A DNA stretch of 35,102 bases, from the IMG/VR virus record IMGVR_UViG_2541047701_000002; one strand, written 5' to 3'. The notes beneath the pieces are model-generated. The model saw only the letters and a list, made by a program, of their open reading frames with translations, made no database searches and was not told the DNA's origin. This DNA comes from a virus (lineage: Duplodnaviria > Heunggongvirae > Uroviricota > Caudoviricetes). Below are positions 22,503 to 35,102 of the stretch, piece after piece. How positions within the stretch are numbered: the stretch's first letter is position 1; each line of letters begins with the position of its first letter. The translations under genes were made by a program, and so were the position numbers.

Positions 22503-22982
22503 TTTTATTCCTACGGGTCTTATTCTGACAATATATCCTGTGTTCCAGACTGCCACATCACCACATCCTGTGCCATTATCTGACTCACATTACATACATC
22601 GCATCGGGATACAGTAGTAGCACTTTCTGTAATACAGCTTCCTGTTTCTTCCACCATCGCACCGGGATAAACCCGCGAATCATTAACGCGGTAAAAACCC
22701 GGTGTGCATCGTTTTTAATTATTCCCGCACACTCACGCAGAAGGAATTCCCCGTCGGGCTACGGTCATGGTTAATGCGGGAATACGGCGACGATACAGCG
22801 CAGCTAAAAGGGTAATGGACGGATAGACCGGTTTATTTCATTCCACAGGATTCTGAGTGTCCCCAACTTCCTCCAATAGTCTGAGCCCACCTGTGTAGTT
22901 TTAATTTTCATCAATCCATTTAACTATCGTTTAATTGTTGTCACATAGGATTCTGCCGTTTTTAACAATGCAGGATAATAAG

Positions 22983-23276
22983 ATGAAAAAAATGTTGTTT
23001 TCTGCCGCTCTGGCAATGCTTATTACAGGATGTGCTCAACAGACGTTTACTGTTGGAAACAAACCTACAGCAGTAACACCAAAGGAAACCATCACCCATC
23101 ATTTCTTCGTTTCGGGAATTGGGCAGAAGAAAACTGTCGATGCAGCAAAAATTTGTGGTGGTGCAGAAAATGTTGTTAAAACAGAAACCCAGCAAACATT
23201 CGTAAATGGATTGCTCGGTTTTATTACTTTAGGCATTTATACTCCGCTGGAAGCGCGTGTGTATTGCTCACAATAA
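22983..23276 (+). CDS. bor: Bor lipoprotein (serum-resistance lysogenic conversion protein)
   Basis: MKKMLFSAALAMLITGCAQQTFTV...EARVYCSQ, near-identical to lambda Bor; opposite strand to the lysis genes as in lambda. Confidence 0.93.
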   Translation: MKKMLFSAALAMLITGCAQQTFTVGNKPTAVTPKETITHHFFVSGIGQKKTVDAAKICGGAENVVKTETQQTFVNGLLGFITLGIYTPLEARVYCSQ

Positions 23277-24640: not shown

Positions 24641-25066
24641 AAGCTGTGTGACGAAGTAACCACTCTTAACAGCATAACCAATTTTTTACGTACGTAAACT
24701 ACTAAATGATATTTGTGAGAATGCCACCGAGTGTTCAAAACACCACCACAAATGCATAAGAAAACTTCAACAAATAACCAGTTAATAATTTCCGACGTTA
24801 TTTTTAGTTTGTTTAAATTAAGCTAAAGAATTATAGAGCACTTATAAATAAGTGCCATTAATATAAATTAGCTAATAGATTTATTTTTGTTCAGACAAGA
24901 GCCATGAATAGGATTAGATAGAAAAGGTTCAGATAAAAATAGAGATCTACTTCACAAATTAAATGAGAAACTAAAACTTACATCTTGAAATAATCACATT
25001 GATTAGATGAATATTTATCGCGCAGTGACATCATTTTTTAATAATAGTTCAAAAAAAGGGCGTACA

Positions 25067-26149
25067 ATGAAAAAATTAACAGTGGCAATTTCTGCTGTAG
25101 CTGCATCAGTACTGATGGCGATGTCTGCTCAGGCAGCTGAAATTTATAATAAAGACAGTAACAAGCTGGATCTATACGGGAAAGTTAATGCCAAGCACTA
25201 CTTCTCCTCTAATGATGCAGATGATGGTGATACTACTTATGCCCGTCTTGGCTTCAAAGGTGAAACCCAAATCAACGATCAACTGACTGGTTTCGGTCAG
25301 TGGGAATATGAATTCAAAGGCAACCGTGCTGAATCTCAAGGTTCTTCCAAAGACAAAACCCGTCTTGCATTTGCAGGCCTGAAATTTGGTGATTACGGCT
25401 CAATCGATTACGGCCGTAACTACGGTGTAGCATACGACATCGGTGCGTGGACTGACGTTCTGCCAGAATTCGGTGGTGATACCTGGACCCAAACAGATGT
25501 GTTCATGACTGGTCGCACTACTGGTGTTGCAACTTATCGTAACAACGACTTCTTTGGTCTGGTCGATGGCCTGAACTTTGCTGCTCAGTATCAGGGTAAA
25601 AATGACCGCACTGACGTAACTGAAGCCAATGGTGATGGTTTCGGTTTCTCCACTACTTATGAGTATGAAGGATTCGGCGTGGGTGCAACCTATGCTAAAT
25701 CAGATCGCACTGACGGTCAGGTCGCCTATGGTAAGAGCAAATTCAATGCCTCCGGCAAAAATGCGGAAGTATGGGCTGCAGGCCTGAAATATGATGCGAA
25801 CAATATCTATCTGGCTACCACATATTCTGAAACTCAGAATATGACCGTTTTTGGTAATAACCATATTGCAAACAAAGCACAAAACTTTGAAGCAGTAGCA
25901 CAATATCAGTTTGACTTCGGTCTGCGTCCATCTGTTGCTTACCTTCAGTCAAAAGGTAAAGACCTTGGTGTTCATGGTGACCGAGACTTAGTCAAGTATG
26001 TCGATGTCGGTGCTACTTACTACTTTAATAAAAACATGTCCACTTTTGTTGATTACAAAATCAACTTAATTGACGATAGTAAGTTTACCAAAACAGCTGG
26101 TATTGATACCGACGACATCGTCGCTGTAGGTCTGGTTTATCAGTTCTAA
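25067..26149 (+). CDS. nmpC: Outer membrane porin, phage Lc / NmpC family (OmpC-like; lysogenic conversion)
   Basis: Start trimmed to [23 protein letters not shown] signal peptide; [17 protein letters not shown]...GLVYQF with C-terminal Phe; typical general porin; opposite strand to the flanking Q and lysis genes. Confidence 0.92.
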
Positions 26150-30056: not shown

Positions 30057-30952
30057 AAATCCACCCCGTAAATCCAGTCAGTGTTTGTCAGGTCGAGTTT
30101 TGGTTTGCAGGCTGTCACACCTGCCTGTTGCTTGTTACGGTTGATTTCGAGCTGGGTCCACTTGTCGCGGAGTTTGGCCGGGCTCAGCACGTTACCGGAC
30201 CAGAAGTTGTCCTGGCATGCCCAGCGGAACAGTACACACATGTCGCGATGGTTACGTCCGTCACGTTCACGCATCAGGCGGATATCGTTAGCCCACCCTG
30301 CAAAATTCGGTTTTCTGGCTGATGGCGCGATGGTCTTCACCATGTCAAACATCCATTCTGCGGCGGTCAGGTCTTCTGCTGTCCCCCACTTGCTGCCGCT
30401 CTGAATTGCAGCATCCGGTTTCACCACAGAAAGGTCGTTTTCTGGCTGGTCAGAGGATTCGCCAGAATTCTCTGACGAATAATCTTTTCTTTTTTCTTTT
30501 GTAATAGTGTCTTTTGTGTCCCCCTGTTTTGAGGGATAGCAATCCCCCAATTTGAGGGATGTTTTATCCCTCGTTTTAGGGGATTTTCCCTCGTTTTGAG
30601 GGATACACCATTCTGAGATGTTTTTATTTGGTCCAAACATGCCGCCTTGCTGCTTGATAATATTCATTCTGACGAGTTCTAACTTGGCTTCATTGCACCG
30701 TTTGACGGGTAACTTTGTAATCTCGCTAAGTTGAGAATCGGTGATTCTGTCCATTGGTTTATTCCATCCATAGGTTTTACGCAGAATGGCAAGCAGCACT
30801 TTAAACTGTCGCTTGGTCAGATCTGCGCCTGAATAAGCCTCAAGCAGCATATTTGATAGTCTGGCGTAACCATCATCGAGATCTGCCACATTACGCTCCT
30901 GTTTGGCAAAGTTACCTCTGCAGAAGTTGAGTATTTTTGCTGTATTTGTCAT
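30053..30952 (-). CDS. O: Replication initiator protein O
   Basis: 299 aa, near-identical to lambda O; contains ori-lambda iterons. Confidence 0.95.
   Translation of the reverse strand: MTNTAKILNFCRGNFAKQERNVADLDDGYARLSNMLLEAYSGADLTKRQFKVLLAILRKTYGWNKPMDRITDSQLSEITKLPVKRCNEAKLELVRMNIIKQQGGMFGPNKNISEWCIPQNEGKSPKTRDKTSLKLGDCYPSKQGDTKDTITKEKRKDYSSENSGESSDQPENDLSVVKPDAAIQSGSKWGTAEDLTAAEWMFDMVKTIAPSARKPNFAGWANDIRLMRERDGRNHRDMCVLFRWACQDNFWSGNVLSPAKLRDKWTQLEINRNKQQAGVTACKPKLDLTNTDWIYGVDL
30455..30605 (-). repeat. ori: ori-lambda: four ~19-bp iterons plus adjacent AT-rich region inside O
   Basis: Minus strand ATCCCTCAAAACGAGGGA / ATCCCCTAAAACGAGGGA / ACATCCCTCAAATTGGGGGA / TATCCCTCAAAACAGGGGGA, then AAAAGAAAAAAGAAAAGATTATTCG; matches the lambda ori as I recall it. 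Confidence 0.85.
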
Positions 30953-30984
30953 AATGACTCCTGTGGATTGATCCAGTAATGACC

Positions 30985-31281
30985 TCAGAATTCCATCTGG
31001 ATTTGTTCAGAACGCTCGGTTGCCGCCGGGCGTTTTTTATTGGTGAGTCCATCAAGCGCATACTTAAAAGCCCTGCTAATCGGACTGATGTCTGATGCCA
31101 TTCCGAAAGCACACAAGACCGAAGCAATAAATCTCCAGTCCGTTCTGCTTATCTTCGATTCATGACAGCCAATCATCTTTGCCAGACCGCGCTGGGTAAT
31201 AGCTGACAGATTGATAAGTAAATCTGTTTCTGCGCGATCAACGTCACGCTGTGATAGTTTGCTGTAACTTGTTCTTTCCAT
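30985..31281 (-). CDS. cII: Transcriptional activator cII (mosaic: non-lambda N-terminal region, lambda C-terminus)
   Basis: 98 aa; C-terminal TNKKRPAATERSEQIQMEF identical to lambda cII; the N-terminal ~75 aa (MERTSYSKLSQRDVDRAETDLLINLSAITQRGLAKMIGCHESKISRTDWRF) differ from lambda but retain an HTH. Confidence 0.85.
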   Translation of the reverse strand: MERTSYSKLSQRDVDRAETDLLINLSAITQRGLAKMIGCHESKISRTDWRFIASVLCAFGMASDISPISRAFKYALDGLTNKKRPAATERSEQIQMEF

Positions 31282-31366
31282 TTCTTAAGATTTCCAATAG
31301 TGAATAGTTAGTTGAAAGGTATGCGTGGAAACGCATATGGCCTTAGTTGGTCAGATATCTTGGAAC

Positions 31367-31411
31367 TCGCTTTTCAGCGACGTAGGACGAATGTCCGTTG
31401 TTACAAAGAGC
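31367..31411 (-). promoter_or_regulatory. nutR: nutR-like site (boxA plus boxB hairpin) between cro and cII
   Basis: Minus strand CGCTCTTTGTAACAACG (boxA-like) then UCGCUGAAAAGCGA (5-bp stem, GAAA loop), same architecture as the nutL candidate; coordinates approximate. Confidence 0.55.
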
Positions 31412-31422
31412 GGATCCGCTTA

Positions 31423-31638
31423 TTAAGCGGCTTTGTGTTCCGGCGGGAACACGTCATCAAGACTGACTTTTGCGCCTAACTTGTTTAGGCACGCAACAAG
31501 AGCACGGCATGTTTTAAGGTCTGGGAAGCGACGACCAGATTCCCAATGTCCGATAGCTCCCTGTGTGCATCCAACTGCCTTAGCAAGTGTTGTTTGAGAG
31601 ATATTCAGTGACTCTCGATATTTTCGTAGGTTGCTCAT
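31423..31638 (-). CDS. cro: Cro-like repressor (HTH, non-lambda specificity)
   Basis: Start trimmed to MSNLRKYRESLNISQTTLAKAVGCTQGAIGHWESGRRFP (GGAGG RBS); 71 aa HTH protein divergently transcribed from cI. Confidence 0.85.
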   Translation of the reverse strand: MSNLRKYRESLNISQTTLAKAVGCTQGAIGHWESGRRFPDLKTCRALVACLNKLGAKVSLDDVFPPEHKAA

Positions 31639-31754
31639 ATGCCCTCCATAGTAAACACGAATAAAAAATACAATATGTACTTTGCGAATACAAGTAAAAA
31701 TACACATTGTGCATGGATGGTTCCAGTACAGAGCGTAATAATAAGGACATGAAA
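31639..31754. promoter_or_regulatory. Right operator / divergent promoter region (OR, PR, PRM) between cro and cI
   Basis: AT-rich 116-bp divergent intergenic region with three occurrences of the half-site ATACA(A): ATACAATATGTAC, ATACAAGTAAAAATACA, ATACACATTGTGCAT. Confidence 0.6.
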
Positions 31755-32408
31755 ATGAAATGGTATGAACTGGCTAGATCCAGAATGAAAGAGCTCGGCA
31801 TAACTCAAGAGAAGTTAGCCGAAGAGCTAGGTATGACGCAGGGTGGGATTGGACACTGGTTGCGCGGATCTCGTCATCCATCTCTTAGTGATATTGGTGT
31901 GGTGTTTAAATACCTTGGTATTGATAACATATCATTCAACCACGACGGGACATTTTCACCTGTTGGCGAATACTCATCGGCCCCAGTTAAAAAACAATAT
32001 GAGTACCCTGTTTTTTCTCATGTTCAGGCTGGGATGTTCTCTCCAGAACTCAGAACCTTTACCAAAGGCGATGCGGAGAGATTGGTAAGCACAACCAAAA
32101 AAGCCAGTGACTCTGCATTCTGGCTTGAGGTTGAAGGTAACTCAATGACCGCACCAACAGGTTCCAAACCCAGCTTTCCTGACGGGATGTTAATTCTGGT
32201 TGACCCTGAGCAAGCTGTTGAGCCCGGCGATTTCTGCATAGCCAGACTTGGTGGTGATGAATTTACCTTCAAGAAACTGATCAGGGATAGCGGTCAGGTG
32301 TTTCTACAGCCACTAAACCCACAATACCCAATGATCCCATGCAATGAGAGTTGTTCCGTTGTGGGGAAAGTTATCGCCAGCCAATGGCCTGAAGAGACGT
32401 TTGGGTGA
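31755..32408 (+). CDS. cI: CI repressor, chimeric: novel N-terminal HTH domain plus lambda-identical C-terminal LexA/S24-type autocleavage domain
   Basis: C-terminal ~130 aa ([22 protein letters not shown]...GNSMTAPTG...[46 protein letters not shown]) match lambda cI; N-terminal [38 protein letters not shown] differs; start chosen at the second ATG (AAGGA 7 nt upstream); the ATG 6 nt upstream is an alternative. Confidence 0.9.
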
Positions 32409-32447
32409 TGAAACCACTTTTATCTACAATTTACAGGGCGGTAAACA

Positions 32448-33005
32448 TTGGCAAAAATAGATGATTATCAGCCAAGCCAAGTAGAAGTTGATAAAGTACT
32501 TTATTGTAAAAAAATAGTTAACTTTTCTGGCGTTAAATGGAAACAGAAACCAAGTCGCTCTGATATGTGGCTACAAGCCCATATCATCCCCTTGGATGAG
32601 GATTGTATACCTATACAAGGGCTAAAGTTTGAACTGAAATGGAAACCAGATCAGGATTCAGAACCTGATGACCCGATTTCTTACCCTAAAATAAATATTA
32701 TTGCTTTCTATCATAACAAGAGGGTTTTCGCGGTAGATACCTATCACTTTGACAAACACACGAATAGTTACAAGGTCGATCATCCGAAGTACCAAGATAT
32801 CATTTACGGTGCTCACTACCATGTATACTATGAAGAAGCTGGATACTATAGTGATAGAATAGCGTTTCCAATCGAAGATGACATAAACCCAGATGACCTG
32901 GTAGGGTATTGGAATTACTTCTGTAAACATCTGAACATAACTTACTCTGGGAGAATACCTTTACCGCTTGAAGATGAGTCGGGGCAAATGGGGTTTGGAA
33001 TATGA
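32448..33005 (+). CDS. Hypothetical protein A of a two-gene cassette downstream of cI (rexAB-equivalent position)
   Basis: 185-codon ORF starting 40 nt after the cI stop; apparent TTG start (first in-frame ATG is 39 codons in); AT-rich; acidic, Tyr/His-rich (HYHVYYEEAGYY); no TM segment; no family recognised by eye. Confidence 0.6.
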   Translation: MAKIDDYQPSQVEVDKVLYCKKIVNFSGVKWKQKPSRSDMWLQAHIIPLDEDCIPIQGLKFELKWKPDQDSEPDDPISYPKINIIAFYHNKRVFAVDTYHFDKHTNSYKVDHPKYQDIIYGAHYHVYYEEAGYYSDRIAFPIEDDINPDDLVGYWNYFCKHLNITYSGRIPLPLEDESGQMGFGI

Positions 33006-33754
33006 TGTGCTCAACAGTGATCTCACAACTAGGTTTCGAATGCCATCCAATAGGCAAGACCTTGAGAATTATCAGTCCATTCACTTACTGTGATGATGGA
33101 GAGCATGTCGGTGCCTTTATCCGTGAAGTCAATGGTAGGTATTTAGTTAGTGACAGATGCGATGCCTTAATGAATATGGAGGCAAGAGGGATCTCGCTTA
33201 CCAAAAAACGACTTGATGAGATACGACAATTACTGCTTAAAGAAGGCGCAGAACTCAATGCTCGAGGAGAAATCATTGCTTGGGCAACAGAAAAGGATGT
33301 CGGTGCGATTACATCGAACATAATTAGAGCTGGTATACTCGCATCAACTTTGTCGTTAGACTGGTATCAGCCAGTTCAAGCTGAAAAGTTTGAAAGTATG
33401 GTTATTGATTATCTATATCACACAGAGCTTAGAGACGCACTTTCTCTTCGTGAAAACGTATATGGCTTGAGTGGACATCAAATTACCGTCCCTGTAACAA
33501 TAAAAACCGACATACCTAAATACGTTTTTACATCAAGCGTGAAACACGGAGGAAGCTGGAATAGTGCTTACTCATTGCTTGGGAAACTAATTGATCTTAA
33601 AGCTTCAAGTGAGGAGTATAACAACAGATTTGTTGTTATAGACAGCGAAGCAATTGGTGATCAAATGCAACAACTCTCCTTACTCTTCCATGAATCAAGC
33701 CAAGTTCTACCATTCTCCAAAAGAGAGACTTGGGTTAAGAGACTTGCAGCATAA
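33002..33754 (+). CDS. Hypothetical protein B of the two-gene cassette (translationally coupled to protein A)
   Basis: ATG overlaps the stop of protein A (ATGA); 250 aa; AT-rich codon usage; followed by a terminator; no family recognised by eye. Confidence 0.65.
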   Translation: MMCSTVISQLGFECHPIGKTLRIISPFTYCDDGEHVGAFIREVNGRYLVSDRCDALMNMEARGISLTKKRLDEIRQLLLKEGAELNARGEIIAWATEKDVGAITSNIIRAGILASTLSLDWYQPVQAEKFESMVIDYLYHTELRDALSLRENVYGLSGHQITVPVTIKTDIPKYVFTSSVKHGGSWNSAYSLLGKLIDLKASSEEYNNRFVVIDSEAIGDQMQQLSLLFHESSQVLPFSKRETWVKRLAA

Positions 33755-33757
33755 TAC

Positions 33758-33786
33758 AACCCGGCCTCAGCGCCGGGTTTTCTTTG
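33758..33786 (+). terminator. Rho-independent terminator ending the cI-cassette transcript (timm-like)
   Basis: AACCCGGC ctcagc GCCGGGTT followed by TTCTTTG, 4 nt after the cassette stop codon. Confidence 0.65.
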
Positions 33787-33954
33787 CCTCACGTTCGCCC
33801 ACCTAAAAACACATAACCAATTATATTTATTGAAAAATAAATAGATGCAACCCACTAAACCACGCAATTCTGATCTCTCCTTACATCGCCGAGGCAATAC
33901 ATCCACGCTAAAAAACAACACTATTAAATACAAAGCGTTATAAAAAACCACGCC

Positions 33955-34005
33955 AACTTACAACAAATTGTATTGATCTTGTAAAGTACATATCGTACTA
34001 TTTAA
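33955..34005 (+). promoter_or_regulatory. Candidate PL promoter with OL operators
   Basis: TTGATC (-35), 17-nt spacer, TACTAT (-10); operator-like AGTACATATCGTACT in the spacer and TTACAACAAATTGTATT overlapping the -35; same ATACA/TGTAT half-sites as OR; coordinates approximate. Confidence 0.5.
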
Positions 34006-34046
34006 CCGTCAGCAGGACGCTGGAAGCCAAATGGAACAGACTGGCA

Positions 34047-34092
34047 GGCTCTTTAAACAACGTCGACTCTCGACTACGTGGCTGAAAAGCCA
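34047..34092 (+). promoter_or_regulatory. nutL: nutL-like site (boxA GCTCTTTAAACAA plus boxB hairpin)
   Basis: boxA-like GGCTCTTTAAACAACG followed about 20 nt later by UGGCUGAAAAGCCA (5-bp stem, GAAA loop), about 100 nt upstream of N. Confidence 0.6.
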
Positions 34093-34190
34093 GATCACCC
34101 AACCACATAAGCTGTGGGATGCAATGCCGAAGCAACCGTCTCAGGAGGAGCTTCGAGATTGCATCGCCAAAGTTTATTCGGGAGGAATCC

Positions 34191-34463
34191 ATGTCCAGAA
34201 AAACAGAATTTAAAGGCACCGCAGCTTCTCGCCGTAGAGCTCGTCGCGCAAATCTGCAAAGTCAGGAGGCGATCAGCTCCGACAAGCTACACAGGCCAAC
34301 CCCTTCACGAGTGGTCTTGCAATGCAAGCTCAAACCAGCAATGAGAGCAGAAGTGATAACTCTGACAACGTTGACCAGAAAATATGAAGGTTCAACTTGT
34401 CTTCCGAACGTAGCTCTTTACGCGGCAGGCTACCGGAAATCAAAACAACTGACGGCGAGATGA
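34191..34463 (+). CDS. N: Antiterminator N (P22 gene-24 type, arginine-rich motif)
   Basis: Start trimmed to MSRKTEFKGTAASRRRARRANLQSQEAISSDK (GGAGGAA RBS); C-terminus PNVALYAAGYRKSKQLTAR resembles P22 N; 90 aa. Confidence 0.8.
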   Translation: MSRKTEFKGTAASRRRARRANLQSQEAISSDKLHRPTPSRVVLQCKLKPAMRAEVITLTTLTRKYEGSTCLPNVALYAAGYRKSKQLTAR

Positions 34464-34471
34464 TAAATTCA

Positions 34472-35102
<631 letters not shown>

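What the first reader, a model, noticed from the sequence alone, without database searches (positions are those of the whole stretch)
31639..32408. Chimeric CI repressor: new N-terminal DNA-binding domain fused to a lambda-identical C-terminal domain, with matching non-lambda operators
The C-terminal ~130 residues of CI match lambda cI, including the S24 Ser and Lys (GNSM, FKKL). The N-terminal HTH domain and the divergent cro are unrelated to lambda's. OR contains three ATACA(A) half-site elements rather than lambda OR sequences, and the same half-sites recur in the OL candidate. This indicates a distinct immunity specificity built on a lambda scaffold. cII is similarly mosaic (lambda C-terminus only).
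Basis: partly seen in the sequence, partly recalled or inferred. Interest (0 to 1): 0.55.

Follow-up and report, generated by a model that had tools for sequence, protein, structure and literature searches.

The report
Known VT2-Sakai-type lambdoid phage immunity region
This is the ordinary, already catalogued repressor/operator switch of a common E. coli lambda-like prophage (the VT2-Sakai immunity type), whose repressor combines a lambda-type self-cleaving tail with a different DNA-reading head.

Summary
The sequence facts hold. CI (31749-32408) carries a hinge and C-terminal domain that differ from lambda CI at 1 of 136 residues. Its N-terminal head is only about 20% identical to lambda's, cro is not lambda-like, and cII is lambda-like only in its last ~20 codons.

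Three details need correcting:
- The head is a divergent homologue of lambda's HTH domain, not unrelated to it.
- The operators are six 17-bp pseudo-palindromes with half-site (A/T)A(A/G)TACA: OR1-3 at 31666-31740 and OL1-3 at 33926-34000. They are not three direct ATACA(A) repeats. The middle ATACAA is most likely the -35 hexamer of PR. OR3 and OL3 were missed.
- The module is not new. The cI-cro-OR segment is 98-99.9% identical to more than 60 deposited phages (VT2-Sakai, Stx1 converting phage, Stx2 II, 1717, ev207, PhiR63_2). It occurs in 776 of 5,426 complete E. coli genomes, including Nissle 1917. The VT2-Sakai and Stx1-phage records already annotate cI, cro and all six operators.

A sharp DNA boundary at 31998 and conflicting nearest relatives for head and tail show that the chimera arose by recombination in the linker.

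Verdict: already known and of low interest. I found no assay of this CI on its own operators.

The parts
31749..32408 (+). cI repressor gene (219 aa from ATG 31749). Database records use other starts: ATG 31713 (231 aa, lying inside OR2) or ATG 31755 (217 aa, 7 nt after the AAGGA Shine-Dalgarno sequence).
   Evidence: ORF list. Pfam HTH_3 at 1.9e-10 and Peptidase_S24 at 1.1e-28. Annotated as cI in AP005153, AP000422 and PV340574.
31749..31997 (+). Non-lambda part of cI: the HTH N-terminal domain and the first part of the linker (residues 1-83). Helix 2 is residues 20-27 and the recognition helix is residues 31-39 (QGGIGHWLR).
   Evidence: 20.5% identity to lambda and 48% to Salmonella phage Oslo CI. 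Distant hits to lambda repressor N-terminal-domain structures. AF2 models helices 5-16, 20-27, 31-39 and 46-55 with pLDDT 80-94 over residues 1-40.
31998..32408 (+). Lambda-homologous block of cI: hinge with the A94-G95 cleavage site and the S24 C-terminal domain with S132 and K175.
   Evidence: 93.4% nucleotide identity to lambda, 25 of 27 mismatches at third codon positions, one amino-acid change.
31666..31682 (.). OR1, AAATACAATATGTACTT, overlapping the spacer and -10 of the inferred PR.
   Evidence: Annotated as 'putative operator' in AP005153 and AP000422. Leave-one-out PWM rank 1. Exact TACANNNYGTA match.
31698..31714 (.). OR2, AAATACACATTGTGCAT. Its centre lies 43 bp upstream of the cI ATG at 31749, against 42 bp for lambda OR2.
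   Evidence: rank 2. Phage Louie differs only in the central triplet. Lambda geometry taken.
31724..31740 (.). OR3, CAGTACAGAGCGTAATA, overlapping the inferred PRM -10.
   Evidence: rank 2.
31665..31693 (-). Inferred PR: -35 TTGTAT (31693-31688), 17-nt spacer, -10 TATTTT (31670-31665). This is an inference.
   Evidence: Read from the sequence. It corresponds to the depositors' 'putative major rightward promoter'. It falls below the threshold of the consensus scan.
31714..31742 (+). Inferred PRM: weak -35 next to OR2, and a -10 TAATAA(T) at 31736-31742. The transcript would start at or next to ATG 31749, so the mRNA would be leaderless as in lambda. This is an inference.
   Evidence: The depositors' 'putative maintenance promoter for cI' maps here. 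Sequence. Not detected by the scan.
31423..31638 (-). cro (71 aa), an HTH_3 protein whose recognition helix TQGAIGHW matches that of CI.
   Evidence: Pfam 4.2e-12. No similarity to lambda Cro. 35% identity to the CI N-terminal domain, including the recognition helix. PDB 28tn_A at 4.5e-17.
30985..31281 (-). cII (98 aa). The N-terminal ~78 residues are non-lambda. The last 20 residues are identical to lambda.
   Evidence: Pfam Phage_CII at 7e-34. BLASTP. DNA boundary at about 31047.
31009..31036 (+). oop-type antisense RNA terminator. The right-hand boundary of the non-lambda immunity segment lies just past it, at about 31047.
   Evidence: Terminator scan. Alignment to lambda. The oop identity rests on knowledge of lambda; there was no Rfam hit.
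32448..33754 (+). Two-gene cassette in the rexA-rexB slot (185 aa and 250 aa, start and stop overlapping). It lies between cI and the terminator, so it is presumably co-transcribed with cI.
   Evidence: ORFs. DUF6978 (weak) and DUF1828. PADLOC PDC-M24A at 4.8e-4 and PDC-M24B at 4.7e-10. 100% identical in ev207, ev017 and PhiR63_2.
33758..33779 (+). Intrinsic terminator ending the cI operon, the equivalent of lambda's immunity-region terminator.
   Evidence: Terminator scan. The homologous stretch is annotated 'terminator' in mEp332 and VT2-Sakai.
33926..33942 (.). OL3, AAATACAAAGCGTTATA.
   Evidence: Annotated operator in AP005153 and AP000422. Leave-one-out rank 1.
33959..33975 (.). OL2, TACAACAAATTGTATTG, overlapping the inferred PL -35.
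   Evidence: rank 1.
33984..34000 (.). OL1, AAGTACATATCGTACTA, overlapping the inferred PL spacer and -10. PL is read as TTGATC 33973-33978, 17 nt, TACTAT 33996-34001.
   Evidence: rank 1. The promoter is an inference from the sequence and the depositors' annotation.
34191..34463 (+). N antiterminator gene, the first gene transcribed from PL.
   Evidence: Pfam N_peptide at 1.5e-32.

Best explanation
This is the immunity (lysis-lysogeny switch) region of a lambda-like temperate phage of the VT2-Sakai immunity type.

How it works:
- CI is a LexA/lambda-CI-family repressor. Its HTH head binds six 17-bp pseudo-palindromic operators with half-site (A/T)A(A/G)TACA and a free central triplet.
- Binding at OR1 and at OL1/OL2 shuts PR and PL.
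- A dimer at OR2, centred about 43 bp upstream of the cI start, most likely activates PRM through the conserved acidic patch on helix 2 (E21, E25). Binding at OR3 represses PRM.
- Cro carries the same recognition helix and competes for the same sites.
- The hinge and C-terminal domain are lambda's own. They supply dimerisation, pairwise and long-range cooperativity, and RecA-stimulated self-cleavage at A94-G95 by S132/K175.

The protein is a natural chimera made by recombination in the linker. The same non-lambda segment (about 31048-31997) also replaced cro, OR and most of cII. OL was replaced separately.

Shown here: sequence identities, module boundaries, the operator family and its distribution in databases. 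Inferred: the binding itself, promoter positions, the leaderless PRM transcript, PRM activation, cooperativity and heteroimmunity.
For: Identity as a known module:
- 98-99.9% nucleotide identity over cI-cro-OR to 62 phage records at 80% coverage or more, including VT2-Sakai, Stx1 converting phage, Stx2 II, 1717, YYZ-2008, ev207 and PhiR63_2.
- The depositors annotated cI, cro, three OR and three OL operators and the promoters.
- The module is present in 776 of 5,426 complete E. coli genomes.
- This CI falls in Stx-phage CI clade I of PMC8951638.

Domain make-up: HTH_3 plus Peptidase_S24. The tail is 135/136 identical to lambda, with the cleavage site and dyad aligned.

Chimera:
- Sharp DNA boundary at 31998, with 93.4% identity downstream and almost only synonymous changes.
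- Conflicting nearest relatives for head and tail.

Operators:
- All six rank 1st or 2nd of 35,086 positions in the leave-one-out PWM test.
- Pattern enrichment.
- In phage Louie the operator differences fall mainly in the central triplet or at outer positions. One exception is half-site position 7 of OR1 (A to G, a variant three other half-sites also carry). The spacers differ.

Shared specificity: CI and Cro share TQG[G/A]IGHW.

Geometry: OR2 and OR3 centres lie 43 and 17 bp from the cI ATG, against 42 and 19 bp in lambda.

Operon end: terminator at 33758-33779.

Not lambda immunity:
- No lambda-type operator in OR or OL.
- In PMC10742460, lambda CI binds VT2-Sakai operators only at 3.7-6.4 uM, against 0.21-0.35 uM for its own OR1 and OL1.
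Against: - I found no experiment in the searchable literature in which this CI or Cro was tested on these operators, so binding, site affinities and cooperativity are inferred.
- The inferred PR, PL and PRM are weak matches to consensus and fall below the promoter scan's threshold.
- The OR1-OR2 spacing is 32 bp, against 24 bp in lambda. OR2 therefore does not overlap the PR -35, so the division of labour among the sites may differ from lambda's.
- The cI start codon is ambiguous (31713, 31749 or 31755).
- The C-terminal domain was not modelled with confidence. Its function rests on identity to lambda.
Confidence: 0.9

Rival explanations
1. One reading: CI recognises three direct ATACA(A) repeats in OR (31668, 31688, 31700) rather than inverted-repeat 17-mers.
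For: The three strings exist in direct orientation. ATACA is the core of the best half-sites.
Against: - Each real site has a symmetry-related second half, and the 12 half-sites share A2, T4, A5, C6 and A7.
- The middle ATACAA has no partner half. It is ATGCAA in phage Louie, which keeps OR1 and OR2. On the cro strand it reads TTGTAT, 17 nt upstream of a -10-like TATTTT.
- OR3 and OL1 carry GTACA, not ATACA.
- An HTH protein that dimerises through a lambda C-terminal domain is expected to bind two-fold symmetric sites (established for lambda, 434 and P22).
Confidence: 0.04
2. No recombination took place. Head and tail descend vertically from a common ancestor with lambda CI, and the head simply evolved much faster.
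For: The head is a distant homologue of lambda's. DNA-binding domains of phage repressors do diversify quickly.
Against: - Identity jumps from background level to over 90% within a few bases at 31998 and drops again exactly at the stop codon.
- Third-position divergence in the tail is only about 18%, while the upstream DNA is at background (unrelated-sequence) identity.
- The head's nearest relative is a Salmonella phage repressor whose tail is only 80% identical.
- A second sharp boundary lies in cII at about 31047.
Confidence: 0.05
3. The module is cross-immune with lambda, because lambda CI can bind these operators.
For: PMC10742460 reports that lambda CI shifts all six VT2-Sakai operators in EMSA.
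Against: - The apparent Kd values are 3.7-6.4 uM and nearly flat across sites. That is 10-25 times weaker than lambda OR1 and OL1 in the same assay and looks like near-nonspecific binding.
- No lambda-like operator lies in OR or OL.
- Recognition-helix residues differ, QSGVGAL in lambda against QGGIGHW here.
Confidence: 0.04
4. The region is a decayed remnant in a cryptic prophage and no longer works as a switch.
For: The Nissle 1917 copy sits in a prophage described as non-inducible (PMC5987069).
Against: - All ORFs are intact.
- Substitutions relative to lambda in the tail are almost all synonymous.
- The same region at 99.9-100% identity sits in complete phage genome records: PhiR63_2, PhiR57_1, ev207 and ev017.
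Confidence: 0.03

Closest known systems
Immunity region of Stx2 phage VT2-Sakai (AP000422) and of the Stx1 converting phage and Stx2 phage II of O157:H7 Morioka V526 (AP005153, AP005154)
   Same: - cI, cro and OR are 98.2-98.5% identical in DNA.
- The CI head is 100% identical.
- The same six 17-bp operators, promoters and gene order are annotated by the depositors.
   Different: - The OL segment is only 91.7% identical. It carries substitutions in OL2 (TACAACA against TAGAACA) and OL3 (TTATA against TTGTA).
- The genes in the rex slot are different.
- This window is a lambda-like siphovirus, PhiR63_2/PhiR57_1, with no stx gene annotated in the aligned part.
Phage lambda CI / OR / OL switch
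   Same: - Hinge and C-terminal domain are 99.3% identical.
- The layout is the same: divergent cI and cro around a three-part OR, a three-part OL before N, and cI followed by accessory genes and a terminator.
- OR2 and OR3 sit at nearly the same distance from the cI start.
- The acidic positions E34 and D38 of lambda's helix 2 are kept as E21 and E25.

   Different: - The head is 20.5% identical, with a different recognition helix and no long N-terminal arm.
- Cro belongs to the HTH_3 family and shows no sequence similarity to lambda Cro.
- The operator sequences are unrelated.
- The OR1-OR2 spacing is 32 bp, not 24 bp.
- rexA and rexB are replaced.

CI/C2 repressors of Salmonella P22-like and lambdoid phages (vB_SosS_Oslo, epsilon34/c341 group, phage L/ST64T C2)
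   Same: These are the closest distinct relatives of the head, at 48-55% identity. They also carry a lambda-type tail.
   Different: The tail is only about 80% identical. The recognition helix differs (TKGAVSHW in Oslo), so the operators are presumably different.
Engineered hybrid repressors (lambda/434/P22 domain swaps; from general knowledge, not re-read here)
   Same: The principle is the same. Operator specificity travels with the HTH head. Dimerisation, cooperativity and RecA sensitivity travel with the C-terminal domain.
   Different: This is a natural recombinant that has spread widely in E. coli, not a laboratory construct.

Membership tests
LexA / lambda CI family of self-cleaving S24 repressors | [quoted passage not shown] | tested here: met
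   Pfam HTH_3 at 1.9e-10, residues 11-58. Hits to lambda repressor N-terminal-domain structures. Confident four-helix model.
LexA / lambda CI family of self-cleaving S24 repressors | C-terminal Peptidase_S24 domain with a Ser/Lys dyad | tested here: met
   Pfam PF00717 at 1.1e-28, residues 87-209. S132 and K175 align with lambda's catalytic Ser and Lys.
LexA / lambda CI family of self-cleaving S24 repressors | Ala-Gly cleavage site in the hinge | tested here: met
   A94-G95 in HVQAGMF, identical to the lambda context.
LexA / lambda CI family of self-cleaving S24 repressors | RecA-stimulated self-cleavage and SOS induction | not testable with these tools
   Inferred from 99.3% identity of the hinge and C-terminal domain to lambda CI.
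Lambda immunity type (imm lambda) | CI DNA-binding domain essentially that of lambda | tested here: not met
   20.5% identity over the head and linker.
Lambda immunity type (imm lambda) | Lambda-type operators (TATCACCGC... 17-mers) in OR and OL | tested here: not met
   No match with up to 3 mismatches inside 31640-31748 or 33900-34010.
Lambda immunity type (imm lambda) | Lambda-type Cro | tested here: not met
   No BLASTP alignment to lambda Cro. This Cro is an HTH_3 protein.
VT2-Sakai immunity type (Stx-phage CI clade I of PMC8951638) | cI, cro and OR near-identical to VT2-Sakai | tested here: met
   98.2-98.5% nucleotide identity. Head 100% identical. The OR alignment shows the three operators identical.
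VT2-Sakai immunity type (Stx-phage CI clade I of PMC8951638) | Same set of OL operators | tested here: met
   OL1 is identical. OL2 and OL3 each differ at one half-site position. All three still rank first in the leave-one-out scan.
VT2-Sakai immunity type (Stx-phage CI clade I of PMC8951638) | Reciprocal immunity in lysogens | not testable with these tools
   Needs plating of this phage on VT2-Sakai-type lysogens and the reverse.
Lambdoid genetic switch architecture | Divergent cI and cro around a three-part OR, a three-part OL upstream of N, and cII downstream of cro | tested here: met
   ORFs and Pfam. Operator scan.

The most novel reading that the evidence does not exclude
Two heteroimmune repressors, lambda CI and this CI, share a 99%-identical dimerisation, cooperativity and cleavage module, and both are common in E. 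coli. They might therefore form mixed dimers or mixed higher-order complexes in double lysogens. That would couple the stability and induction of two prophages that are nominally independent, through dominant-negative titration or co-induction. The almost purely synonymous divergence of the tail (25 of 27 changes) would then reflect selection on a shared, exchangeable module. None of this was tested here. I found no report of it in the searchable library.
Probability: 0.2. Interest if true: 0.4.

Novelty: already known. Interest (0 to 1): 0.1.

Why it matters
It matters little as a discovery. The module has been deposited and annotated in the VT2-Sakai and Stx1-phage records, has been classified in a survey of Stx-phage repressors, and sits in about one in seven complete E. 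coli genomes.

Its practical value:
- It marks the immunity group of this phage, which predicts which prophages exclude it.
- It is a clean textbook case of domain-level mosaicism in phage repressors.
- It is the switch that controls Stx2 phage VT2-Sakai, yet I could find no published assay of the cognate CI on its operators.
- The lambda-identical tail predicts lambda-like SOS induction behaviour for those Stx phages.

Tried and rejected
- Inverted-repeat finder on OR and OL. It found only trivial 6-bp palindromes, because the operators are imperfect. I used pattern and PWM scans instead.
- Consensus promoter scan. It did not call PR, PL or PRM, since each matches at most 8 of 12 consensus positions. 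The promoter positions therefore remain inferences from position and from the depositors' annotation.
- Rfam scan of 30500-35102. No family reached threshold, so the oop assignment rests on alignment to lambda only.
- An alternative OR2 register, the 15-bp palindrome ATaCACA-T-TGTGcAT. Rejected because Louie's changes (CAT to TCT) would break it, whereas they fall in the free central triplet of the 17-mer register.
- An alternative OR2 overlapping the PR -35 (31692-31708). Only its left half fits, and it is not among the top PWM scores.
- Single-sequence AF2. Only the head was modelled with confidence, so I ran no fold search.
- PDB sequence searches for the two rex-slot proteins. Nothing meaningful.
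- Literature search for DUF1828, DUF6978 and PDC-M24. No functional study.
- Fetching lambda into the Python sandbox failed. I used the alignment file instead.

Full report
WHAT IS THERE

The + strand of the window corresponds to lambda's leftward strand. The genes run as follows:
- cII, 30985-31281, minus strand
- cro, 31423-31638, minus strand
- a 110-bp control region
- cI, 31749-32408, plus strand
- two further plus-strand ORFs, 32448-33005 and 33002-33754
- a terminator, 33758-33779
- a second control region
- N, 34191-34463

Pfam assigns CI to HTH_3 plus Peptidase_S24, Cro to HTH_3, cII to Phage_CII and N to N_peptide.

CHECKING THE OBSERVATION

CI residues 84-219 match lambda CI at 135 of 136 positions. 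The matching stretch includes the A-G cleavage site (A94-G95) and the Ser/Lys dyad (S132 in GNSM, K175 in FKKL).

At the DNA level, similarity to lambda is at background up to about 31997. It then jumps to 93.4% over 411 bp and ends exactly at the stop codon. Of the 27 mismatches, 25 are at third codon positions and only one changes an amino acid. The tail is therefore lambda's at the protein level. It is not a recent copy of reference lambda, and it is under strong purifying selection.

The head is 20.5% identical to lambda's, but it is not unrelated. It belongs to the same HTH_3 family and finds lambda repressor N-terminal-domain structures at E 5e-4 to 4e-3. A single-sequence model gives four confident helices, with the recognition helix at residues 31-39.

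Cro has no detectable similarity to lambda Cro. It shares 35% identity with the CI head, including the recognition helix: TQGAIGHW in Cro and TQGGIGHW in CI. This is what one expects of two proteins that read the same operators.

cII is 43% identical to lambda cII, with the last 20 residues identical. DNA homology to lambda resumes at about 31047, just past the oop-type terminator at 31009-31036, and continues into O at about 98%. The non-lambda immunity segment therefore spans about 31048-31997.

THE OPERATORS

The depositors of VT2-Sakai (AP000422) and of the Stx1 converting phage (AP005153) annotated three 17-bp operators in OR and three in OL. In this window these map to:

| Site | Coordinates | Sequence |
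|---|---|---|
| OR1 | 31666-31682 | AAATACAATATGTACTT |
| OR2 | 31698-31714 | AAATACACATTGTGCAT |
| OR3 | 31724-31740 | CAGTACAGAGCGTAATA |
| OL3 | 33926-33942 | AAATACAAAGCGTTATA |
| OL2 | 33959-33975 | TACAACAAATTGTATTG |
| OL1 | 33984-34000 | AAGTACATATCGTACTA |

I tested this set independently in four ways.
- The 12 half-sites give the consensus (A/T)A(A/G)TACA. A5 and C6 are invariant, A2 is present in 11 of 12, and T4 and A7 in 9 of 12.
- With a PWM built from the other five sites, each site ranks 1st or 2nd among all 35,086 positions of the window.
- TACANNNYGTA occurs only at OR1, OR3 and OL1 in the whole window.
- ARTACANNNYGTA with up to one mismatch gives 15 hits against 4.35 expected, and eight of them cover all six sites.

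Phage Louie is about 93% identical in this region. Its operator differences fall mainly in the central triplet or at outermost positions, while the spacers between sites vary. One exception is position 7 of the OR1 left half-site, which is G in Louie and A here; three other half-sites also carry G there. Louie's CAT to TCT change in OR2 supports the 7+3+7 register over an alternative 15-bp palindrome.

The middle ATACAA at 31688 has no symmetric partner and is ATGCAA in Louie. On the cro strand it reads TTGTAT, 17 nt upstream of TATTTT, so it is most likely the -35 of PR.

HOW IT MOST LIKELY WORKS

By position, OR1 overlaps the spacer and -10 of PR. OL1 and OL2 overlap the -10 and -35 of PL, which I read as TTGATC-17-TACTAT. 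OR3 overlaps a -10-like TAATAA(T) just before cI.

The centres of OR2 and OR3 lie 43 and 17 bp from the ATG at 31749. In lambda, where the PRM transcript starts at the AUG, the distances are 42 and 19 bp. Lambda's helix-2 acidic residues E34 and D38 align with E21 and E25 here. I therefore infer lambda-like activation of a weak PRM from OR2, probably with a leaderless or near-leaderless mRNA, and autorepression at OR3.

These promoter calls are inferences. None of the three promoters reaches the threshold of the consensus scan.

One difference from lambda stands out. OR1 and OR2 are 32 bp apart centre to centre, about three helical turns, rather than 24 bp. OR2 therefore does not overlap the PR -35.

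The lambda-identical hinge and C-terminal domain should provide dimerisation, cooperativity, OL-OR looping (OR2 to OL2 is 2,261 bp here) and RecA-dependent cleavage. All of this follows from established knowledge of lambda CI and was not tested here.

IS IT A TRUE CHIMERA?

Yes. Besides the sharp boundaries, the nearest relatives of head and tail conflict.
- The head is closest to Salmonella phage repressors: 48% to vB_SosS_Oslo, and 52-55% to related Salmonella-phage and phage L/ST64T repressors.
- The tail is 99.3% identical to lambda, but only 80% identical to Oslo.

In the phage collection, a tail at 95% identity or more is found in 98 records. Every one I looked at carries either the lambda head or this one.

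IS IT DISTINCT FROM LAMBDA IMMUNITY?

No lambda-type operator lies in OR or OL.

A published EMSA study found that lambda CI binds the VT2-Sakai operators only at 3.7-6.4 uM, nearly uniformly across sites. In the same assay it bound its own OR1 and OL1 at 0.21-0.35 uM (PMC10742460). I read that as near-nonspecific binding, not cross-immunity.

IS IT NEW?

No.
- The cI-cro-OR segment is 98-99.9% identical to 62 phage records at 80% coverage or more. These include VT2-Sakai, Stx1 converting phage, Stx2 II, 1717, YYZ-2008, the PA series, ev207, ev017, 2G7b, PhiR57_1 and PhiR63_2.
- The last 25 kb of the window is 100% identical to PhiR63_2 over 97% of its length, and cI, Cro and cII are annotated there.
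- The segment is present at 80% coverage or more in 776 of 5,426 complete E. coli genomes, among them Nissle 1917, APEC O1 and the type strain.
- A 2022 survey of Stx-phage regulatory regions places this CI in clade I and notes its 61% overall identity to lambda CI (PMC8951638).

What I could not find in the searchable library is any assay of the cognate CI or Cro on these operators.

VERDICT

Novelty: already known. Interest: 0.1.

The most novel reading not excluded is cross-talk with lambda-immunity prophages through mixed oligomers formed by the shared tail (probability about 0.2).

Noticed in passing
window 32448-33754 (+), terminator 33758-33779: The rexA-rexB slot downstream of cI holds a two-gene cassette of 185 aa (weak DUF6978 match, phrog_2017) and 250 aa (DUF1828, phrog_1960), with overlapping stop and start codons. 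PADLOC matches it to the candidate defence system PDC-M24: M24A at E 4.8e-4, and M24B at E 4.7e-10 over the full length. It is 100% identical in ev207, ev017, PhiR57_1 and PhiR63_2, and is also present in Nissle 1917. VT2-Sakai carries other genes in this slot. I found no solved-structure relatives and no functional literature. It is probably a lysogen-expressed anti-phage cassette, but it is uncharacterised.
   Followed up: partly
window 30958-31327: The cloning primers for the 'phage repressor (pr)' gene EcN_1294 of E. coli Nissle 1917 (Bury et al. 2018, PMC5987069) map to 30958-30978 and 31309-31327. The cloned fragment is therefore the cII gene plus the lambda-identical oop antisense region of this immunity module, not the cI repressor. 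The reported ~215-fold and ~243-fold drops in lambda and stx-phage plating on MG1655(pUC19-pr) would then be a multicopy cII/oop effect, not repressor immunity.
   Followed up: partly
window 30965-31047 (+): The right-hand boundary of the non-lambda immunity segment coincides with the end of the oop-type terminator (31009-31036). From there into the O gene the DNA is about 98% lambda-like. The identical cII C-terminus may therefore be conserved because it overlaps oop. Rfam gave no hit for oop.
   Followed up: partly
window 31713 / 31749 / 31755: Public records disagree on the cI start. PGAP and the Stx1-phage record use ATG 31713 (231 aa), which lies inside OR2 and upstream of the inferred PRM. 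VT2-Sakai uses ATG 31755 (217 aa). The geometry favours 31749 or 31755.
   Followed up: partly
window 31258-31271 (-): TTGCTGTAACTTGT (TTGC-N6-TTGT) lies in the 5' end of cII. It corresponds to the site annotated as the CII-binding site and establishment promoter in VT2-Sakai. CII may therefore keep lambda-like TTGC-N6-TTGC recognition despite only 43% identity.
   Followed up: no
window 31423-31638 (-): Cro has a solved-structure relative, PDB 28tn_A ('lambda repressor-like protein', 82 aa, E 4.5e-17, roughly half the residues identical over residues 1-69). It could serve as a template for modelling operator recognition.
   Followed up: no
window about 25005-26147 (+) and about 22980-23275 (+): By correspondence with the PhiR63_2 annotation, the late region carries a porin gene (OmpD/NmpC-like) downstream of Q, and bor. 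These are typical lambdoid lysogenic-conversion genes. I did not examine them in the window itself.
   Followed up: no
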